DNA of 64,000 nt from an uncultured Candidatus Saccharibacteria bacterium (lineage in GTDB: Bacteria; Patescibacteriota; Minisyncoccia; UBA6257; GWB1-50-10): NCBI GenBank assembly GCA_964365955.1, contig CAYISA010000004.1:2939-66938 (forward strand). The letters run 5' to 3'. Positions 9,343-54,516 of the stretch are shown here, one piece after another; the stretch's first letter is position 1; the number at the start of each line of letters is the position of its first letter. The notes beneath the pieces were generated by a model. It did not search any database and was not told the DNA's origin. It worked only from the letters and a program-made list of their open reading frames with translations. The position numbers and the translations under genes were made by a program.

Positions 9343-9987
9343 ATGACAAAAAAAGATTATAAATTGGTCACGCTTATCGGTTTTTTGGTCGGTTGGCTGG
9401 TGCTTCCGGTTATTGCAAATATAGGGAAGCGCTATGGAGTGACGGTCAGCATCCCGCTGGGCGCCGCGTCCGTTCTTGGTTTTTCAGCTTTTGCGCCTCT
9501 CGCGCTTTGGGTGCTGCATCTGCTTTCAAAAAAAATTCCGGTGTTTCTGCAGTTCGGAAAATTCGCGGCCGTGGGGACGCTGAACACGCTTTTGAATTTT
9601 GCGGTGTTGAACACGCTGATTTTTATGACGGATATTTCGGCGGGGTGGACCTATACCGGGTTCACCGTCATCGCCTTTTTTATAGCGACCACCAATAGTT
9701 ATTTTTGGAATAAGTTTTGGACGTTTCAGAGCCGTATTCCGCTGGGGTGGGGTGAGTATGCGCGGTTCGCCCTTTTTACCGTCGGCGGAGTGATTTTGAA
9801 TTCGGGGGTTGCATCGCTCATTGTGAACGGAATAGGGGCTCCCCAGGGAGTTGCGCCGGAGTTATGGGCGAATGTGGGCGCCCTGGGCGGCGTTGCCGTG
9901 TCTTTTCTCTGGAATTTTTTGACCTATCGCCGTATCGTGTTCCGTGCCAGCGGCGGTTCCCCGGAAGCGGCAAATCCCGTACAATAA
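9343..9987 (+). CDS. GtrA family membrane protein (polyprenyl-phosphate-sugar flippase-like)
   Basis: 214 aa, 4+ TM helices, GtrA-like signature FAAVGTLNTLLNFAVLNTLIF. Confidence 0.7.
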   Translation: MTKKDYKLVTLIGFLVGWLVLPVIANIGKRYGVTVSIPLGAASVLGFSAFAPLALWVLHLLSKKIPVFLQFGKFAAVGTLNTLLNFAVLNTLIFMTDISAGWTYTGFTVIAFFIATTNSYFWNKFWTFQSRIPLGWGEYARFALFTVGGVILNSGVASLIVNGIGAPQGVAPELWANVGALGGVAVSFLWNFLTYRRIVFRASGGSPEAANPVQ

Positions 9988-9994
9988 TAGAATA

Positions 9995-10795
9995 ATGAAA
10001 CCGTTTCTTTCCGTCATTATCCCCGCCTACAACGAGTCCCAGCGTCTTCCGCAGACGCTTGTTGATGTGGATAAAAAATTGAGCGAGGTAGAATATTCCT
10101 CGGAAGTGCTGGTGGTAAGCGACGGTTCCAAAGATGCGACGGCCGAAATTGTTCGGCGATTTGCGGTTCACATGAAAAATCTGAAGCTGATTGATAATAA
10201 GGAAAATCACGGGAAGGGGTGGGTGGTGCGACAGGGGATGATGGCTGCAAAAGGGAACTGGCGACTTTTTATGGATGCGGATAATTCCACAACTGTGGAT
10301 CAGTTCAATCTCATGCTCCCGTTCTTTAAAGAAGGATACGATGTGGTGTTCGGATCACGCGCCGTTTCCGGGGCAAAACTGGTGCCACCCCAACCGTGGT
10401 ATCGGCAGATTTTAGGGCGGGGGGGGAACGTGGTTATTCAACTCTTTGCACTTCCGGGCGTGCGTGATTCGCAGTGTGGATTCAAATGTTTTTCGGAAAA
10501 TGCCGCGCCGCGCGTTTTCGGGCTTGCTCGCGTTGACCGGTGGGGGTTCGACGTAGAAGCATTGGCGCTTGCAAAAGTGCTGGGCTACCGCGCAAAAGAA
10601 ATGCCTGTCACGTGGGTGAACGACACGCGTTCCACCGTGGGGTTGAAAGCGTATCTTTCGACGCTGTGGGATGTAGGGCGCATCTGGTGGTGGTTAAAAC
10701 GCGGCAGTTATCCGTTAAACTCGAACTCTTTAAAGCCCGAACCGCCGCGCACGGAAGAAATCGATTCAAATAGTTCAACCGGCGCATTTGAATAA
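9995..10795 (+). CDS. GT2 family glycosyltransferase (GtrB/DPM1-like polyprenyl-phosphate hexosyltransferase)
   Basis: N-terminal LSVIIPAYNES, DGSKD and DAD motifs of GT-A fold GT2. Start moved to the MKPFLS Met to avoid overlapping gtrA (track ORF starts at 9944). Confidence 0.75.
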   Translation: MKPFLSVIIPAYNESQRLPQTLVDVDKKLSEVEYSSEVLVVSDGSKDATAEIVRRFAVHMKNLKLIDNKENHGKGWVVRQGMMAAKGNWRLFMDADNSTTVDQFNLMLPFFKEGYDVVFGSRAVSGAKLVPPQPWYRQILGRGGNVVIQLFALPGVRDSQCGFKCFSENAAPRVFGLARVDRWGFDVEALALAKVLGYRAKEMPVTWVNDTRSTVGLKAYLSTLWDVGRIWWWLKRGSYPLNSNSLKPEPPRTEEIDSNSSTGAFE

Positions 10796-11979: not shown

Positions 11980-12570
11980 ATGGCAAAGTCCGATATGGTT
12001 CGCGGAATGCTTTTCGGAGTCGAGTTCCTTACAAACGTCGTGAAAGAAGCAAGAAAGCTTGGCAGAACCGATGAGGAAATTCACGAATGGATGAAAACAG
12101 AATCTGATGGGGCAAAGAAAACCGCACAACTCATCGTTGGCACTGCGAAAAACGTCCTTCGTATTCTCGCAAATCTCTCCCTTGCCGACCGTATCGCCCG
12201 TGGGAAGTACGACTGGGTAAACCCCGACATCACAAAAGGGCATTTCCCCACAAACGTGCCTGTAGACTACTCTCCAGACCACAAACTCTATCACTTTGAT
12301 CGTCCCATCTCCTCCGAAGAGGCGATCAAATGGATGGAAAAGGATGGATTCCGCCCGGGGAACGGAGCAGAGCTTCTTGCCTTTGGGGAAACCTTCCGCG
12401 ATGAGCAGAAGGAGTATCCTATCGTAGCTCTTGGTTCGGTCTGGCAGTACTTGGATGGCCACCGCCGCGTGCTGGTGCTCTGCTCGCATGCTTCGGGGCG
12501 CGGGCTGGGTCTGCTTGGGTTTGAGGGTGGCTGGGATGGCAACTATCGTTTCCTTGCGGTGCGCAAGTAA
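11980..12570 (+). CDS. DGR target protein with C-terminal variable region (C-type-lectin/FGE-like fold predicted)
   Basis: Track ORF 11947..12570. The ATG at 11980 has the strong RBS. The last ~47 codons are the VR. C-terminus ...GGWDGNYRFLAVRK resembles the ...GGSWNN...GFRLxR end of CLec-fold DGR targets. Confidence 0.75.
   Translation: MAKSDMVRGMLFGVEFLTNVVKEARKLGRTDEEIHEWMKTESDGAKKTAQLIVGTAKNVLRILANLSLADRIARGKYDWVNPDITKGHFPTNVPVDYSPDHKLYHFDRPISSEEAIKWMEKDGFRPGNGAELLAFGETFRDEQKEYPIVALGSVWQYLDGHRRVLVLCSHASGRGLGLLGFEGGWDGNYRFLAVRK
12427..12568 (+). repeat. DGR variable repeat (VR)
   Basis: 142-bp near-copy of 12889-13030. It differs at 24 positions, every one an A in the TR. Confidence 0.9.
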
Positions 12571-12626
12571 CTTGGACTTGGGACTTTGATGCTTAGATTT
12601 TTAATCTCTTAGTCCCTTAGATTTTT

Positions 12627-12660
12627 GACCCGTTTCGATTTTTGAAACGGGTCTTTTGTT
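12627..12660 (+). terminator. Hairpin plus U-tract downstream of VR (intrinsic terminator and/or DGR target-recognition hairpin)
   Basis: gacccgtttc-gattttt-gaaacgggtc followed by ttttgtt, about 57 nt after the target-gene stop. Confidence 0.55.
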
Positions 12661-12888
12661 ATAATAATTATGGATAGTAGGTTGGAATGCCTGCGGCTAC
12701 GGTTTCAGGCGACCGAATTCCGAAATTTCTTTGTGCAGAGTGGGTGCGGCTACGGTTTCGCCCAGCGCCACGTGGAAGTTTCTAACCCATAAAGATACTT
12801 GGTGTAGAGTATTAAGGAATTTTTTAGATTCCGAATACGATTCAATCCCAAGAATATTCAAGGGATGGTGGAACGGAAGATACTTTGC

Positions 12889-13030
12889 ACACTTGGTTCG
12901 GTCTGGCAGAACTTGAATGGCAACCGCAACGTGCTGGTGCTCAACTCGAATGATTCGAGGCGCAAGCTGAATCTGAATAGGTTTGAGAATGACTGGAATG
13001 GCAACTATCGTTTCCTTGCGGTGCGAAAGT
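12889..13030 (+). repeat. DGR template repeat (TR)
   Basis: Invariant partner of the VR, A-rich at codon positions (AAC/AAT-rich when translated). Not a protein gene (track ORF 12865..13194 is read-through). Confidence 0.9.
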
Positions 13031-13042
13031 CTCTTTATGTGT

Positions 13043-13450
13043 TCATCCCGCCCTTGGCGGGATTTCTTTCAATGATAACTGTTTTATCCAGCCGCCAAGC
13101 ATTCTTCCAATTTCATCGAGTCGTTCTGAAATCGCTATATATTTTTTACTATCAAATGACTTTGTTTCCCACGCGATTTGAAGGAAGAATTTAGCGAGAT
13201 CAAGTTTTGCTCCGGCGGCACGCACAAAAGAAATGCGGTTTTCGGGTATAGCGTAACTTGCTGAAAAGAGAAGCTCCGTGGTATCAAGTAGGTAAACATC
13301 AATTTTCTCGCCAAGTGTGTACCGTGCGGATTTTTGGAGATGTGGCATCATTTCACGCCACAATTTGTATGCCGCCACTAGTTTTTGGATTATCGATTGA
13401 TTATTTCGTCGGGGGGGGGTGTTCCGGGGTTCTTTAGTATCATGTTTCAA
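13043..13450 (-). CDS. avd: Avd-like accessory variability determinant (four-helix-bundle protein)
   Basis: 135 aa. C-terminal helix ISERLDEIGRMLGGWIKQL and upstream AKFFLQIAWETK match the Avd/four-helix-bundle family pattern. Abuts the TR and is encoded on the opposite strand. Confidence 0.7.
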   Translation of the reverse strand: MKHDTKEPRNTPPRRNNQSIIQKLVAAYKLWREMMPHLQKSARYTLGEKIDVYLLDTTELLFSASYAIPENRISFVRAAGAKLDLAKFFLQIAWETKSFDSKKYIAISERLDEIGRMLGGWIKQLSLKEIPPRAG

Positions 13451-14413
13451 AGAATAACAAGTATAGAAAATTTAGTCGAGGCGTGGGAGGAATTTATAAA
13501 AGGAAAGCGGCACAAAAGAGATGTGCAGGGGTTTTTGCTGCATTTAATGGACAACATTCTTGCGCTTCACCGCGATCTTATGGAGCATGCGTACCGCCAC
13601 GGCGGGTACGCCGCATTTGCTGTTTCTGATCCCAAGCCGCGCAGTATTCATAAGGCTCCGGTTCGTGACAGGCTACTCCACCACGCGGTACATCGCGTGC
13701 TTTATCCCCCTATGAATAAACGGTTTATTGCAGACTCATTTTCTTGTCGAACTGGCAAAGGAACGCATGCCGCTCTCGGCCGCTTTCAGAGGTTTTTCTA
13801 TACAGTAAGTAACAACAATACCAAACAATGCTGGGTTTTGAAGTGCGACATTCGAAGATTTTTTGCGAGCGTTCATCATGAAACACTTTTCAACATTTTA
13901 AAGAAAACCATCCATGATTCTGATGCACTTTGGCTTTTACGCCAGATTATTGGCAGTTTTTATATCGGTGAATATGGCAGGGGACTTCCCCTTGGCAATC
14001 TTACCTCGCAACTCTTTGCGAATGTATATATGAACGAATTTGATCGGTATGTAAAGCACACGTTGAAAATAAAACACTATATTCGATATGCAGATGATTT
14101 TGTCATTTTTTCTAACGATCGCGAAGAACTGGGACAGATTATCAAACCCATTAGAGAATTTTTATGCGACGCGCTTTCCTTACAACTCCATGAAGATAAA
14201 GTTGTGATAGAGACCATCGGTTCCGGTATTGATTTTTTGGGATGGGTGCATTTTCCGGATCATAGGGTGTTGCGCACATCAACAAAACGAAGGATGTTAA
14301 GGAAATTGCAGGCAAGGGGAAATAATACTGCCACCATCGCATCTTATTTAGGACTTTTGAAGCATGGGAACACATGTAAACTCGAGGAGGAAATTTCGAA
14401 TAGAAATTGGTAG
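13442..14413 (+). CDS. DGR-type reverse transcriptase
   Basis: RT motifs present: motif 4 LGNLTSQ (DGR hallmark [I/L]GxxxSQ rather than the group II QGxxxSP) and YADDFVIF. About 320 aa, no maturase or endonuclease domain. Start placed at the Met of MFQRITS (track start 13385). Confidence 0.85.
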   Translation: MFQRITSIENLVEAWEEFIKGKRHKRDVQGFLLHLMDNILALHRDLMEHAYRHGGYAAFAVSDPKPRSIHKAPVRDRLLHHAVHRVLYPPMNKRFIADSFSCRTGKGTHAALGRFQRFFYTVSNNNTKQCWVLKCDIRRFFASVHHETLFNILKKTIHDSDALWLLRQIIGSFYIGEYGRGLPLGNLTSQLFANVYMNEFDRYVKHTLKIKHYIRYADDFVIFSNDREELGQIIKPIREFLCDALSLQLHEDKVVIETIGSGIDFLGWVHFPDHRVLRTSTKRRMLRKLQARGNNTATIASYLGLLKHGNTCKLEEEISNRNW

Positions 14414-53250: not shown

Positions 53251-54516
53251 ATGCCGGTTCCCCCCCCCGCCGATAATCCAGAATTATTGAAAGTAAGTTC
53301 GCGTGTACGCACGCGTCTTTCGGACGTGGATTTTTCACATCACCTTTCCATGCGCGGACTTTTTAAACTCTCGTTCCGTGCGTTTAAGAGCCGTTCACTG
53401 CGAACCATTCTCACAACCTTAGGCATCGGCGTGGGTATCGGCACCGTGCTTTTTTTGGTGTCTTTGGGATTCGGGCTGGAACGCATCTTGGTTGAGCAGA
53501 TCGCGAAAACGGAGGATTCGCTCTATTCCATGGAGGCATATTTTCCTTCCGAAGAGGTGTTTGGTATTTCAGAAAAAGAATTAAAGGCGGTGGGCGAAGT
53601 TCCACGCGTGGTCGAGGTTTCACCGATTGCGGATCTTTCAGGCGAGATGCTCGCACAAAATACAAGTGGAAATGTGAAAGTGCGTGTGGTGGAGCCGAGT
53701 TATTTCCGTCTTTCGGGCACCGTGCCGGAGCTCGGTACTCCTTTAGTAGAAGGGGATCCGAATGGAGTGGTCATCACGAGCGCCGTGCTCAAATTCTTTA
53801 ATCTTGAACCGAGCCAAAAAACCCTTGGGATTCCGTTCAATCTTTCCGTTGCCCTTCCGCAGGAGTTTGTGCTTCCCCAGCAGTTGAAGATTGTGGGCAT
53901 TATTCAGGACGATGCGCTTGACCCCACGGTTATTGTGCCGCGCGGGTTATTGCCGGGGGCGACACTTCAGTACCGGAGCGTTTTGGTGCGTGCCGCGGCG
54001 GCGGATGATGTGCTTACCGTGCGCGACACGCTGTTGGAGCGCGGATTTTCCATCACCGCAAAACTGGATTTGATCAACCAGGTAAAAAAGGTCTTGACCA
54101 TCGCCACGGTTATTTTGGGCGCATTCGGCGTAACCGCGCTTACGGTCTCCGCGATCGGAATGTTCAACACCATGACGATTGCATTGCTGGAACGCACCTA
54201 CGAAATCGGCATTATGAAGTCCTTGGGTGCGACGAACGGCGACATCCAGCGGCTTTTCTTGATGGAGGCATTTCTGATGGGATTTCTAGGAGGCGTGATG
54301 GGGTTGATTATCGGAATCTTGGGTGCCGACATCTTTAATCTTGCGCTGAATTTGCTTGCAAAATCACTGGAAGGAAAAGCAGTCGATCTTTTTGACCGGC
54401 CGTGGTGGTTTATTTCGGGGCTCGTTGGGTTTGCGTCGCTTGTAAGCTTGATCACCGGTTATTATCCGGCCCGGCGCGCCGTCAAACTTTCTCCGCGCGA
54501 AGCATTTAAGAAGTAG
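53251..54516 (+). CDS. ABC transporter permease, FtsX/MacB family
   Basis: N-terminal TM, large periplasmic domain, C-terminal 3-TM FtsX domain (...MKSLGATNGDIQRLFLMEA...). Confidence 0.75.
   Translation: MPVPPPADNPELLKVSSRVRTRLSDVDFSHHLSMRGLFKLSFRAFKSRSLRTILTTLGIGVGIGTVLFLVSLGFGLERILVEQIAKTEDSLYSMEAYFPSEEVFGISEKELKAVGEVPRVVEVSPIADLSGEMLAQNTSGNVKVRVVEPSYFRLSGTVPELGTPLVEGDPNGVVITSAVLKFFNLEPSQKTLGIPFNLSVALPQEFVLPQQLKIVGIIQDDALDPTVIVPRGLLPGATLQYRSVLVRAAAADDVLTVRDTLLERGFSITAKLDLINQVKKVLTIATVILGAFGVTALTVSAIGMFNTMTIALLERTYEIGIMKSLGATNGDIQRLFLMEAFLMGFLGGVMGLIIGILGADIFNLALNLLAKSLEGKAVDLFDRPWWFISGLVGFASLVSLITGYYPARRAVKLSPREAFKK

What the first reader, a model, noticed from the sequence alone, without database searches (positions are those of the whole stretch)
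13043..13450. Unusual DGR architecture: avd on the opposite strand, abutting the TR and overlapping the RT start
Canonical DGRs such as BPP-1 are co-directional (target-avd-TR-RT). Here the Avd-like ORF (C-terminal helix EIGRMLGGWI, as in bAvd) is on the minus strand. Its stop lies 13 bp from the TR end, and its start overlaps or diverges from the RT start at 13385/13442. The TR sense RNA must therefore be made antisense to avd or from an independent promoter. A TATAAT sits at about 12660.
Basis: partly seen in the sequence, partly recalled or inferred. Interest (0 to 1): 0.6.

Follow-up and report, generated by a model that had tools for sequence, protein, structure and literature searches.

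The report
Standard CPR-type DGR, reversed avd
The minus-strand ORF is a real Avd gene, but its reversed position between template repeat and reverse transcriptase is the normal, already published layout of diversity-generating retroelements in CPR (Patescibacteria) bacteria. The locus also holds a conserved structured RNA upstream of the template and a slippery G-tract that may switch the element on and off.

Summary
ORF 13043-13450 (-) is an Avd homologue: it passes the Pfam bAvd threshold, models as a four-helix bundle and superposes on bAvd 4DWL. Its stop lies 12 nt after the TR. Its only in-frame start, TTG 13450, overlaps the RT ATG at 13442.

The word "unusual" is not supported. Wu et al. 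2018 named this layout architecture B3, TR-(avd)-RT, and found it in 90% of CPR DGRs. Here, all 73 related loci with upstream DNA have it.

The TR has its own extended -10 promoter (12657-12665), and a hairpin follows it (13045-63). In 56 of 70 junctions that hairpin carries a T-tract, so the TR RNA is probably a separate short transcript.

Three further features turned up:
- A ~220-nt leader RNA (12672-12891) has strong covariation and no Rfam match.
- A leader strand pairs with the sequence just 3' of the last mutable TR adenine, in a primer-like geometry.
- A simple-sequence repeat (G9, 13411-19) sits at the avd/RT junction in 72 of 74 junctions. Its length differs between near-identical contigs in three related lineages, putting the avd start in or out of frame.

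I found no paper describing the repeat or the leader in the library I could search.

The parts
11980..12570 (+). DGR target gene (196 aa; AGGAG lies 7 nt upstream of the ATG). It has no Pfam or NCBIfam match. The VR forms its C-terminus.
12430..12568 (+). Variable repeat (VR)
   Evidence: 22 differences from the TR, all at TR adenines
12627..12653 (+). Intrinsic-terminator-like hairpin of the target gene (stem of 10 complementary bases per arm; the scan counts 12 pairs), followed by TTTTGTT
12657..12665 (+). Extended -10 promoter element TGTTATAAT for the TR RNA. The predicted transcription start is near 12672 (GG).
   Evidence: a -10-like hexamer sits 225-246 nt upstream of the TR start in most of 56 loci
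12672..12891 (+). Structured leader RNA 5' of the TR. P1 is 12691-97/12702-08. P2 is 12741-50/12755-64. The long-range helix P4 is 12802-13/12879-90 and encloses P5 (12817-20/12828-31) and P6 (12845-52/12859-66).
   Evidence: 37 pairs, 34 with compensatory changes, 95.3% paired against 70.2% in shuffles; covariance-model hit 12775-12896, 108.7 bits. No Rfam match.
12784..12800 (+). Leader 'box' AACCCATAAAGATACTT, which pairs with 13027-13043 (15 of 17 bp). Proposed primer strand.
   Evidence: repeat I3; own-locus duplex -7.55 against cross-locus -4.80 kcal/mol, none of 5000 permutations as good
12892..13030 (+). Template repeat (TR). The last adenine that differs from the VR is 13026.
13027..13043 (+). 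Post-TR strand that pairs with the leader box. It starts directly 3' of the last mutable adenine.
13045..13073 (+). GC-rich hairpin ATCCCGCC-CTT-GGCGGGAT followed by TTCTTTCAAT. It looks like an intrinsic terminator and is probably also the Avd-binding stem-loop analogue. Its complement encodes the Avd C-terminal tail.
   Evidence: and literature
13043..13450 (-). avd (135 aa counted from TTG 13450; the four-helix core is residues 20-127)
13411..13419 (.). Simple-sequence repeat: G9 on the + strand, C9 in avd (encodes the PP in ...NTPPRR...). It lies 23-31 nt upstream of the RT ATG.
   Evidence: Length polymorphism was seen in related lineages.
13442..14413 (+). DGR reverse transcriptase (323 aa; LGNLTSQ at residue 184, YADD at 216)

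Best explanation
This is an ordinary member of the CPR-type DGR family, architecture B3 of Wu et al. 2018. The order of parts is: target gene with C-terminal VR; terminator; promoter; a structured leader of about 220 nt; the TR; a hairpin; avd on the opposite strand; the RT.

Shown here:
- The minus ORF is a bona fide Avd.
- The layout is the norm for this RT clade.
- The leader is a conserved structured RNA that is specific to these DGRs.
- A leader strand co-varies with the sequence immediately 3' of the TR.
- A G/C or other simple repeat sits at the avd/RT junction, and its length differs between near-identical contigs of related lineages.

Inferred:
- The TR RNA is made from its own extended -10 promoter (12657-12665). 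It mostly ends at the hairpin and T-tract just after the TR, so it does not have to run antisense through avd.
- avd and the RT are divergent genes with overlapping 5' ends. Their promoters were not located.
- The RT-Avd complex binds the leader-TR RNA.
- The leader box : post-TR duplex plays the part of the template:primer duplex of the Bordetella phage element. Helix P4 at the 5' edge of the TR would be the stop, and the post-TR hairpin would be the Avd-binding stem-loop.
- The repeat tract acts as a stochastic switch on Avd translation, and possibly on RT expression.
For: Identity of Avd, RT, TR and VR.

Published architecture: (PMC5758913).

Synteny:
- 73 of 73 loci have avd on the minus strand directly upstream of the RT.
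- The TR abuts the avd stop in 52 of 56 DGRs.

Promoter: a -10-like element lies at a conserved distance of 225-246 nt from the TR.

Hairpin plus T-tract: present at 56 of 70 TR/avd junctions on the + strand and 0 of 70 on the minus strand. The background rate is 2.5% of 8686 windows.

Leader RNA:
- 34 of 37 pairs show compensatory changes.
- 95.3% of cells are paired against 70.2% in shuffles (0 of 500 shuffles reach it). Slid controls give 41-53%.
- The covariance model hits once per DGR, 75 hits in 650 kb, always on the RT strand.

Box: post-TR duplex.

Repeat tract:
- Present at 72 of 74 junctions.
- G/C runs of 8 or more occur 63 times at the junction and once elsewhere in 528 kb.
- Contigs that are otherwise 99.7-99.9% identical carry C9/C10, C9/C8 and (CA)9/(CA)10. 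In the two poly-C lineages (C9/C10 and C8/C9) this puts the upstream ATG in or out of frame; neither (CA)n length has an in-frame ATG.

Bordetella phage RNA model used for comparison.
Against: - No transcript data exist, so the promoter, the terminator and the ends of the TR RNA are predictions.
- The window's own T-tract is weak (TTCTTTCAAT). It fails my stricter rule of at least 6 T in 9.
- No promoter for the RT or for avd could be identified.
- The priming role of the leader box is an analogy, not a test.
- For the repeat tract, no length variation was seen in the window's own lineage (two assemblies, both G9). None was seen in the P0009 lineage (9 contigs, C7), the P0121 lineage (3 contigs, C8) or the P0078 lineage (11 contigs, C9).
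- A TTG at the Leu codon that opens helix 1 is enriched (27 of 53 against an 18.6% background). This suggests an alternative start downstream of the tract, which would make Avd expression partly independent of tract length.
- Homopolymer length in short-read assemblies can be miscalled.
Confidence: 0.85

Rival explanations
1. The transcription unit resembles that of the Bordetella phage. One + strand RNA runs from the TR promoter through the TR and antisense avd into the RT. The post-TR hairpin would be only an Avd-binding stem-loop, and further functional RNA (primer, RT-binding stem) would lie in the antisense-avd stretch.
For: - In the Bordetella phage, all the RNA needed for priming lies 3' of the TR.
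- Handa et al. report putative Avd-binding stem-loops just downstream of the TR in 207 of 278 DGRs with Avd, a set that includes CPR members.
- The window's T-tract is weak.
- No separate RT promoter was found.
Against: - 56 of 70 junctions have a T-rich tail right after the hairpin, and only on the + strand.
- The large, covarying structured domain lies 5' of the TR, and its box pairs with the post-TR strand.
- The antisense-avd stretch is constrained by protein coding.
Confidence: 0.2
2. The G/C tract is not a switch on Avd. It lies in the 5' UTR of an avd that starts at the helix-1 Leu codon, and/or in the RT promoter or 5' UTR. Its length would tune transcription or translation of the RT, or it would be kept for another nucleic-acid-level reason.
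For: - TTG is enriched at the Leu(-10) codon.
- An upstream ATG lies in the Avd frame in only 20 of 72 loci, which is no better than chance. This fraction does not depend on whether an internal start exists.
- A purine-rich Shine-Dalgarno-like sequence and the RT start follow the tract within about 20-45 nt.
Against: - 26 of 72 loci have no canonical start either upstream or at helix 1, yet their Avd bodies are intact.
- The tract is replaced at the same place by (GT)n, (CT)n or (CTGG)n, always inside an ORF continuous with the Avd body.
- Both loci without a repeat have the conserved ATG in frame.
- Natural variants move the conserved MxQLNxH start in and out of frame.
Confidence: 0.3
3. The tract and its length differences are artefacts of sequencing or assembly, or merely neutral poly-proline coding.
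For: - Long G/C homopolymers are error-prone in short-read data.
- Several lineages show no variation.
Against: - The tract is present at the same site in 67 independent assemblies from many studies.
- G/C runs of 8 or more occur 63 times at the junction and once elsewhere.
- CCC makes up only 26% of Pro codons elsewhere in these genes.
- Lengths are reproducible across 9-11 assemblies within a lineage.
- A dinucleotide repeat also varies, by exactly one unit.
Confidence: 0.08
4. The minus-strand ORF is not a gene, and the region is only an untranslated TR-RT spacer.
For: None beyond the weak TTG start and the lack of an obvious Shine-Dalgarno sequence.
Against: - It passes the Pfam threshold.
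- 258 homologues were found, all carrying the bAvd domain.
- The ORF is intact in all 73 relatives.
- The confident four-helix model matches 4DWL.
Confidence: 0.01

Closest known systems
[quoted passage not shown] 2018, NAR 46:11; Paul et al. 2017, Nat Microbiol 2:17045, which I could not read)
   Same: Order and orientation of target/VR, TR, reversed avd and RT. Host group (Patescibacteria). A small target protein with no recognisable domain.
   Different: Nothing in the layout differs. The structured leader, the T-tract after the post-TR hairpin and the repeat tract are not mentioned in the parts of Wu et al. that I read.
Bordetella phage BPP-1 DGR (mtd-avd-TR-Sp-brt) and its RT-Avd-RNA particle (Handa et al. 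2018, PMC6182149; Handa et al. preprint 10.1101/2023.10.23.563531; PDB 8UB7)
   Same: Adenine-specific TR-to-VR differences. An RT with the [ILV]GxxxSQ motif. A four-helix basic Avd. A stem-loop right after the TR. A duplex between sequences upstream and downstream of the TR.
   Different: - avd is on the other strand and lies between the TR and the RT.
- There is no non-coding Sp spacer of about 140 nt 3' of the TR.
- The large structured RNA domain lies 5' of the TR.
- The strand that pairs next to the initiation site comes from the 5' leader, not from Sp.
- The 5' ends of avd and the RT overlap.
Simple-sequence-repeat contingency loci (phase variation) of Neisseria, Haemophilus, Campylobacter and Helicobacter
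   Same: A G/C homopolymer of 7-14 nt, or a di- or tetranucleotide repeat, near the 5' end of an ORF and between divergent genes. Unit-number differences between near-identical genomes. Frame ON/OFF consequences.
   Different: The host is an uncultivated CPR bacterium. The controlled gene is an accessory factor of a mutagenic retroelement, not a surface or restriction-modification gene. Switching rates and expression effects have not been measured.
Retron ncRNA (msr-msd) priming from an internal 2'-OH
   Same: This is an analogy only: a structured RNA 5' of the templated segment whose internal nucleotide would prime cDNA next to a duplex that closes the template as a loop.
   Different: There is no evidence here for a branched product. 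The RT clade, the accessory protein and the biological outcome all differ.

Membership tests
Diversity-generating retroelement | TR/VR repeat pair whose differences fall at TR adenines | tested here: met
   22 of 22 core differences are at TR adenines. Twelve TR adenines are unchanged.
Diversity-generating retroelement | RT with the DGR-type [I/L/V]GxxxSQ motif and a YxDD catalytic site | tested here: met
   LGNLTSQ at residue 184 and YADD at 216. RVT_1 E 5.5e-24. That the motif defines the family is from my own knowledge.
Diversity-generating retroelement | VR at the 3' end of a target ORF near the cassette | tested here: met
   VR 12430-12568 lies inside ORF 11980-12570.
Diversity-generating retroelement | Ongoing mutagenic retrohoming (VR variation within a population) | not tested
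   Only consensus assemblies were available. No read-level data were available.
Avd (PF22296 / NF033474) | Sequence match above the curated threshold | tested here: inconclusive
   Pfam 44.7 bits, above its cut-off of 40. NCBIfam 63 bits, below its cut-off of 80.
Avd (PF22296 / NF033474) | Four-helix-bundle fold like bAvd | tested here: met
   AlphaFold2 pLDDT 87.5 with four helices. Foldseek 4DWL TM 0.82-0.87, rmsd 1.7-2.1 A.
Avd (PF22296 / NF033474) | Basic protein (pI about 9.5) | tested here: met
   pI 9.8. Wu et al. give 9.5 +/- 0.7.
Avd (PF22296 / NF033474) | Pentamer that binds the RT and the RNA | not testable with these tools
   This needs biochemistry or modelling of the complex.
Architecture B3, TR-(avd)-RT (Wu et al. 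2018) | The TR comes first, then avd on the reverse strand, then the RT, with no other accessory gene | tested here: met
   Coordinates. All 73 relatives show the same layout.
Intrinsic (Rho-independent) terminator after the TR | GC-rich hairpin followed directly by a T-tract on the transcribed strand | tested here: inconclusive
   The window has an 8-bp stem with 6 GC pairs, but its tail is TTCTTTCAAT. 56 of 70 junctions surveyed pass the strict rule; the window is one of the 14 that fail.
Intrinsic (Rho-independent) terminator after the TR | RNA 3' ends at the T-tract | not testable with these tools
   No transcript data were available.
BPP-1-type DGR RNA (avd 3' end - TR - Sp) | Non-coding spacer 3' of the TR carrying the primer nucleotide, cPRT stop strand, thumb ring and RT-binding stem | tested here: not met
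   3' of the TR there are only a 14-nt linker, one hairpin and then avd coding sequence on the other strand. The structured domain lies 5' of the TR.
BPP-1-type DGR RNA (avd 3' end - TR - Sp) | Stem-loop immediately 3' of the TR (Avd-binding) and a duplex between sequences upstream and downstream of the TR | tested here: met
   Hairpin 13045-63. Box: post-TR duplex with co-variation. The function of both is inferred.
SSR contingency locus | Repeat tract long enough to slip, placed in a 5' coding region or a promoter | tested here: met
   G9 at 13411-19 lies between the avd start and helix 1, 23 nt upstream of the RT ATG.
SSR contingency locus | Tract length varies among otherwise identical genomes | tested here: inconclusive
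   Met in three related lineages. Not seen in the window's own lineage, where both assemblies are G9, nor in three other lineages.
SSR contingency locus | Length change switches expression | not testable with these tools
   Only the frame consequences were computed. In the window, G9 puts the TTG ORF in frame, G10 or G7 puts the ATG ORF in frame, and G8 or G11 puts neither in frame.

The most novel reading that the evidence does not exclude
CPR-type DGRs may use a permuted DGR RNA and a built-in stochastic switch.

The permuted RNA:
- A structured domain of about 220 nt, absent from Rfam, lies 5' of the TR rather than 3' of it.
- It would supply the primer strand (the leader box pairing right next to the last mutable adenine) and the stop helix (P4 at the 5' edge of the TR).
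- The RNA would end at an Avd-binding hairpin that doubles as a terminator and is dual-coded with the Avd C-terminus.

The switch:
- A conserved hypermutable repeat at the overlapping avd/RT 5' ends would turn Avd, and with it mutagenic retrohoming, on and off within populations.
Probability: 0.45. Interest if true: 0.7.

Novelty: already known. Interest (0 to 1): 0.4.

Why it matters
The finding as written does not matter much. It rediscovers the standard CPR DGR layout.

The features found while checking it could matter to people who work on DGRs, for three reasons.
- They suggest how a DGR RNA can work when no 3' spacer is available, and they give exact nucleotides to mutate.
- They suggest an answer to an open question: how hosts limit a mutagenic system. 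A slippery repeat would lock a variant in or re-open diversification.
- They show dual coding, with a terminator or Avd-binding hairpin inside the avd 3' end and overlapping avd/RT starts.

All three are directly testable with metatranscriptomes, read-level metagenomics and in vitro reconstitution.

Tried and rejected
- Sequence-only search of the PDB gave only E 0.45 to 4DWL. The fold comparison was needed.
- Rfam gave nothing but three tRNAs at gathering thresholds. A permissive scan of 12560-13480 gave only weak hits of the terminator or small-RNA type.
- Looking for tract-length variation in the window's own lineage gave one sibling contig, which is identical at G9.
- The P0009 lineage gave 9 assemblies, all C7.
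Exact-protein look-ups are biased towards one length when the protein includes the tract.
- Literature searches linking DGR or avd with phase variation, homopolymers or simple repeats found nothing. A search for DGR structured RNA in Patescibacteria found only the generic RT-1 to RT-19 motifs of Weinberg 2017, which are in Rfam and did not match.
- Paul et al. 2017 is not held in the library, so I cannot exclude that it mentions these features.
- I could not locate convincing promoters for the RT or for avd by consensus. The scan found no more sites than in shuffled sequence, and inspection by eye of the junction was inconclusive.
- I considered that loci lacking an in-frame upstream ATG might compensate with an internal start. 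The cross-tabulation shows no such complementarity.
- I rejected TTG 13385 as the RT start.
Full report
**What is at the coordinates.**
The region is a DGR. A 139-nt repeat pair is present. The VR (12430-12568) lies at the 3' end of a + strand ORF (11980-12570). The TR (12892-13030) lies 462 nt downstream. All 22 differences in the core fall at TR adenines. Downstream, a + strand ORF from ATG 13442 to 14413 is a reverse transcriptase (RVT_1, E 5.5e-24). It has the DGR-type LGNLTSQ motif and YADD.

- It passes the Pfam bAvd threshold, with 44.7 bits against a cut-off of 40.
- It aligns end to end with the NCBIfam Avd model, but at 63 bits, below that model's cut-off of 80.
- It has 258 database relatives, all carrying the bAvd domain. 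One is an identical NCBI protein from a Patescibacteria MAG.
- It models as a four-helix bundle with pLDDT 87.5.
- The model superposes on bAvd 4DWL and on the Avd chains of the 8UB7 particle, with TM 0.82-0.87 and rmsd about 2 A.
- It is basic, with pI 9.8.

Its stop codon (13043-13045) lies 12 nt after the last TR/VR-identical base. Its only in-frame ATG/GTG/TTG upstream of helix 1 is TTG 13450, which overlaps the RT ATG by 9 nt.

**Is the architecture unusual?**
No. Wu et al. 2018 (PMC5758913) define architecture B3 as TR-(avd)-RT, with the parentheses marking the reverse strand. [quoted passage not shown]

I checked this independently. A scan of one genome per species returned 80 loci encoding RTs 57-65% identical to this one, and by their record titles they come from Patescibacteria/CPR or unclassified MAGs, apart from two binned under Gammaproteobacteria names (L005, L072). 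I built an HMM from 120 Avd homologues and ran it over their six-frame ORFs. It found Avd on the strand opposite to the RT, directly upstream of it, in all 73 loci that have upstream sequence. The other seven loci start at the RT. In 56 DGRs (55 loci plus the window) with an A-biased TR/VR pair, the TR ends at a median of 12.5 nt from the avd stop, and 52 of the 56 lie within -10 to +30 nt. The VR lies about 400-520 nt upstream on the RT strand. The window is a typical member of a published class.

**How is the TR RNA made?**
The evidence favours the second.

The target gene ends with a terminator-like hairpin (12627-12653). Directly after it lies a perfect extended -10, TGTTATAAT (12657-12665). 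In most of the related loci, a -10-like hexamer, often with TGn, lies at a nearly constant distance of 225-246 nt from the TR start.

On the 3' side, a GC-rich hairpin (13045-13063) follows the TR by 14 nt and lies inside the last codons of avd. The same feature recurs in the relatives. The stem sequence differs from locus to locus, and a tail of the TTTTGTTTT type usually follows. With a fixed rule (stem of at least 6 bp, at least 3 GC pairs, at least 6 T in 9), 56 of 70 junctions have it on the + strand and none on the minus strand. The background rate in the same loci is 2.5% of 8686 windows.

One caveat applies. The window's own tail, TTCTTTCAAT, meets only the looser rule of at least 5 T in 8.

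A preprint from the Ghosh laboratory (10.1101/2023.10.23.563531) reports putative Avd-binding stem-loops just downstream of the TR in 207 of 278 Avd-containing DGRs, CPR included. The hairpin is probably that element. Here it usually also looks like an intrinsic terminator. I infer that the TR RNA is a separate transcript of about 400 nt. This is a prediction, not an observation.

**A structured leader RNA.**
The constant promoter-to-TR distance led me to align the leaders of 56 DGRs. They are strongly conserved.

RNAalifold predicts six helices with 37 pairs, 34 of which show compensatory changes. Counting pairs gives these figures:
- 95.3% of cells are paired, against 70.2% in column shuffles. 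None of 500 shuffles reach the observed value.
- Sliding the partners by 1-3 columns gives 41-53% paired.
- The covariation score is 0.80, against 0.15-0.20 for the slid versions.

In window coordinates the helices are as follows:

| Helix | Coordinates |
|---|---|
| P1 | 12691-97 / 12702-08 |
| P2 | 12741-50 / 12755-64 |
| P4 (long-range) | 12802-13 / 12879-90 |
| P5 (inside P4) | 12817-20 / 12828-31 |
| P6 (inside P4) | 12845-52 / 12859-66 |

P1 and P2 are the two copies of the direct repeat TGCGGCTACGGTTTC noted.

I built a covariance model of the 3' domain. It finds exactly one hit per DGR in every locus with enough upstream DNA, including loci outside the seed alignment. It gave 75 hits in 650 kb, always on the RT strand just 5' of the TR. 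In the 64-kb window the only hit is 12775-12896, at 108.7 bits. Rfam 15 has no match, even at E of 10 or less.

**A leader : post-TR duplex.**
The inverted repeat I3 pairs 12784-12800 with 13027-13043 (15 of 17 bp). It is conserved too. The leader "box" (consensus AAAAATGAAGATACTT) pairs with the stretch between the TR and the hairpin. Changes on one side are matched on the other. Examples are AAACGAAG/CTTCGTT in L031, AAACAAAG/CTTTGTT in L034 and AGAAGGAGGG/CCTTCTT in L012. Own-locus duplexes average -7.55 kcal/mol, against -4.80 for cross-locus pairs, and none of 5000 permutations did as well.

The geometry is suggestive:
- The 3' end of the box (U12800) pairs with A13027.
- The next template base, A13026, is the last adenine that differs from the VR.
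- One nucleotide later, the leader enters P4.
- The 3' strand of P4 ends where the TR begins.

The TR is thus a loop of about 135 nt, closed by the box duplex and P4.

In the Bordetella phage element the comparable parts are arranged differently. The primer nucleotide (Sp A56) sits at the end of a short TR:Sp duplex next to the first templated base. A duplex between upstream and downstream sequences acts as the stop. An Avd-binding stem-loop follows the TR.

By analogy, I propose these roles:
- The box duplex is the template:primer duplex.
- P4 is the stop.
- The hairpin is the Avd-binding element.

That would be a permuted RNA, with the scaffold 5' rather than 3' of the TR. Such a permutation makes sense when avd occupies the 3' side. 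This is inference. Handa et al. analysed only 40 nt upstream of the TR, which would miss the box and most of the leader.

**The avd/RT junction.**
Printing the junction for all loci showed two things.

First, many relatives share a conserved avd start. It is an ATG that is the reverse complement of a His codon in the RT N-terminus. The RT begins MKIQLxH and Avd begins MxQLNFH, encoded on opposite strands of the same 21 nt. This ATG is present at 48 of 74 junctions.

Second, between that start and Avd helix 1 lies a simple-sequence repeat:
- It is poly-G on the RT strand, 7-14 nt long with a mode of 9-10, at 67 junctions, counting the window.
- It is replaced at the same place by (GT)9-10 in three loci, (CT)10 in one locus and (CTGG)10 in one locus.
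- It is absent from two loci.

G/C runs of 8 or more occur 63 times at this junction and once elsewhere in 528 kb of the same loci. CCC makes up only 26% of Pro codons elsewhere in these genes. The tract is therefore kept at the nucleotide level.

Across the tract, the reading frame is not kept. An upstream ATG open to the tract lies in the Avd frame in 20 of 72 loci, in frame +1 in 38 and in frame +2 in 26. All the Avd bodies are nevertheless intact. The two loci without a repeat both have the conserved ATG in frame.

**Is the tract really variable?**
Tests within single lineages gave mixed results.

No variation was seen in four lineages:

| Lineage | Contigs | Tract |
|---|---|---|
| The window's own | 2 | G9 |
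| P0009 | 9 | C7 |
| P0121 | 3 | C8 |
| P0078 | 11 (sampling biased) | C9 |

Clusters of Avd proteins at 90% identity, however, contain members with identical bodies and unrelated N-termini. Their DNA shows why:

| Lineage | Variant 1 | Variant 2 | Difference outside the tract |
|---|---|---|---|
| P0011/P0147 | C9 (L107-L110): the ATG ORF MNFTNTNQ... is in frame | C10 (L104-L106): a stop lies upstream | 1 mismatch in 1591 nt |
| P0144 | C8 (L124): MGQLNLHN... is in frame | C9 (L121-L123): no start, and gene callers report a truncated 92-aa protein | 0 mismatches in 1079 nt |
| P0135 | (CA)9, 7 contigs | (CA)10, 3 contigs | 1 mismatch in 1130 nt |

In the P0135 lineage, a read-level ORF (P0137) shows a third length.

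In the window, G9 leaves only the TTG ORF in frame. G10 or G7 would bring ATG 13443 into frame. G8 or G11 would bring neither.

This is the signature of a contingency locus, but an alternative remains. The Leu codon that opens helix 1 is TTG in 27 of 53 cases, against 18.6% of Leu codons elsewhere. It may therefore serve as a second start that bypasses the tract. Even so, 26 of 72 loci have neither kind of start. The tract also lies 20-45 nt upstream of the RT start, so it could act on the RT as well.

I found no paper that links DGRs with simple repeats or phase variation in the library I could search. I could not read Paul et al. 2017.

**Verdict.**
As stated, the finding is already known and of low interest.

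The checks did surface three things that appear to be undescribed in the sources I could search:
- a covarying 5' leader RNA, with a primer-like pairing to the 3' edge of the TR;
- a dual-coded hairpin, usually terminator-like, inside the 3' end of avd;
- a conserved, naturally polymorphic repeat tract at the overlapping avd/RT starts.

The sequence-level facts are well supported. Their functions are inferred and need transcript mapping, read-level analysis and biochemistry.

Noticed in passing
window 12672-12891 (+): The leader of about 220 nt between the TR promoter and the TR is a conserved structured RNA. It has six helices, and 34 of its 37 pairs show compensatory changes. It has no Rfam match and occurs once per DGR in about 70 related loci.
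   Followed up: yes
window 12784-12800 with 13027-13043: A leader box pairs with the strand immediately 3' of the last mutable TR adenine (A13026) and co-varies with it across loci. Together with helix P4, it closes the TR as a loop, in a primer:template-like geometry.
   Followed up: yes
window 13045-13073 (+), inside the avd 3' end: A GC-rich hairpin plus T-rich tail follows the TR on the + strand only. It is present at 56 of 70 junctions surveyed. Its complement encodes the Avd C-terminal tail, so the stretch is dual-coded. The window's own T-tract is weak.
   Followed up: yes
window 13411-13419; related loci L001-L080, L104-L124: A simple-sequence repeat lies at the avd/RT junction in 72 of 74 junctions. 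It is poly-G of 7-14 nt, or (GT)n, (CT)n or (CTGG)n. Its length differs between contigs that are 99.7-99.9% identical in three lineages, moving the avd start in or out of frame.
   Followed up: yes
related loci, Avd residue 10 positions before the conserved Tyr of YKLW (the Leu of LP[IV]IQ): This Leu codon is TTG in 27 of 53 loci, against 18.6% of Leu codons elsewhere. It may be an alternative start that yields a core Avd without the N-terminal extension. The window has Ser (TCG) at this position.
   Followed up: partly
window 53260-53268 (+): A second long homopolymer, C9, lies at codons 4-6 of a 421-aa ORF (53251-54516, MPVPPPADN...; hydrophobic stretches in the translation suggest a membrane protein, which I did not test). 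It is a possible further contingency locus in the same genome.
   Followed up: no
window 10419-10426 (+): A G8 run lies inside ORF 9944-10795, which by its sequence looks like a glycosyltransferase (not tested). This is another candidate slippery tract.
   Followed up: no
L010 (1722-2380 and 3357-4175): This locus carries two avd genes and two leader-RNA hits, so it has two DGR cassettes in tandem.
   Followed up: no
L031, L034, L038, L052 (RT start region): These RTs lack an ATG where the relatives start (RRIEF/RRIQF in place of MKIQL). Their RT frame stays open back through the G-tract, so the tract might lie inside the RT ORF there, or an ATT start might be used.
   Followed up: no
L104-L106 (protein P0147): The database gene call for the C10 variant reads through an in-frame TGA, and the look-up reports that the locus does not translate to the query. 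This is probably a call made with an alternative genetic code. Under code 11 the ORF is interrupted.
   Followed up: partly
window 12685-12706 and 12738-12759: The 22-nt direct repeat containing TGCGGCTACGGTTTC corresponds to the two similar hairpin modules P1 and P2 of the leader. The inner motif CGGyTACGGyTT is conserved across loci, and its role is unknown.
   Followed up: partly
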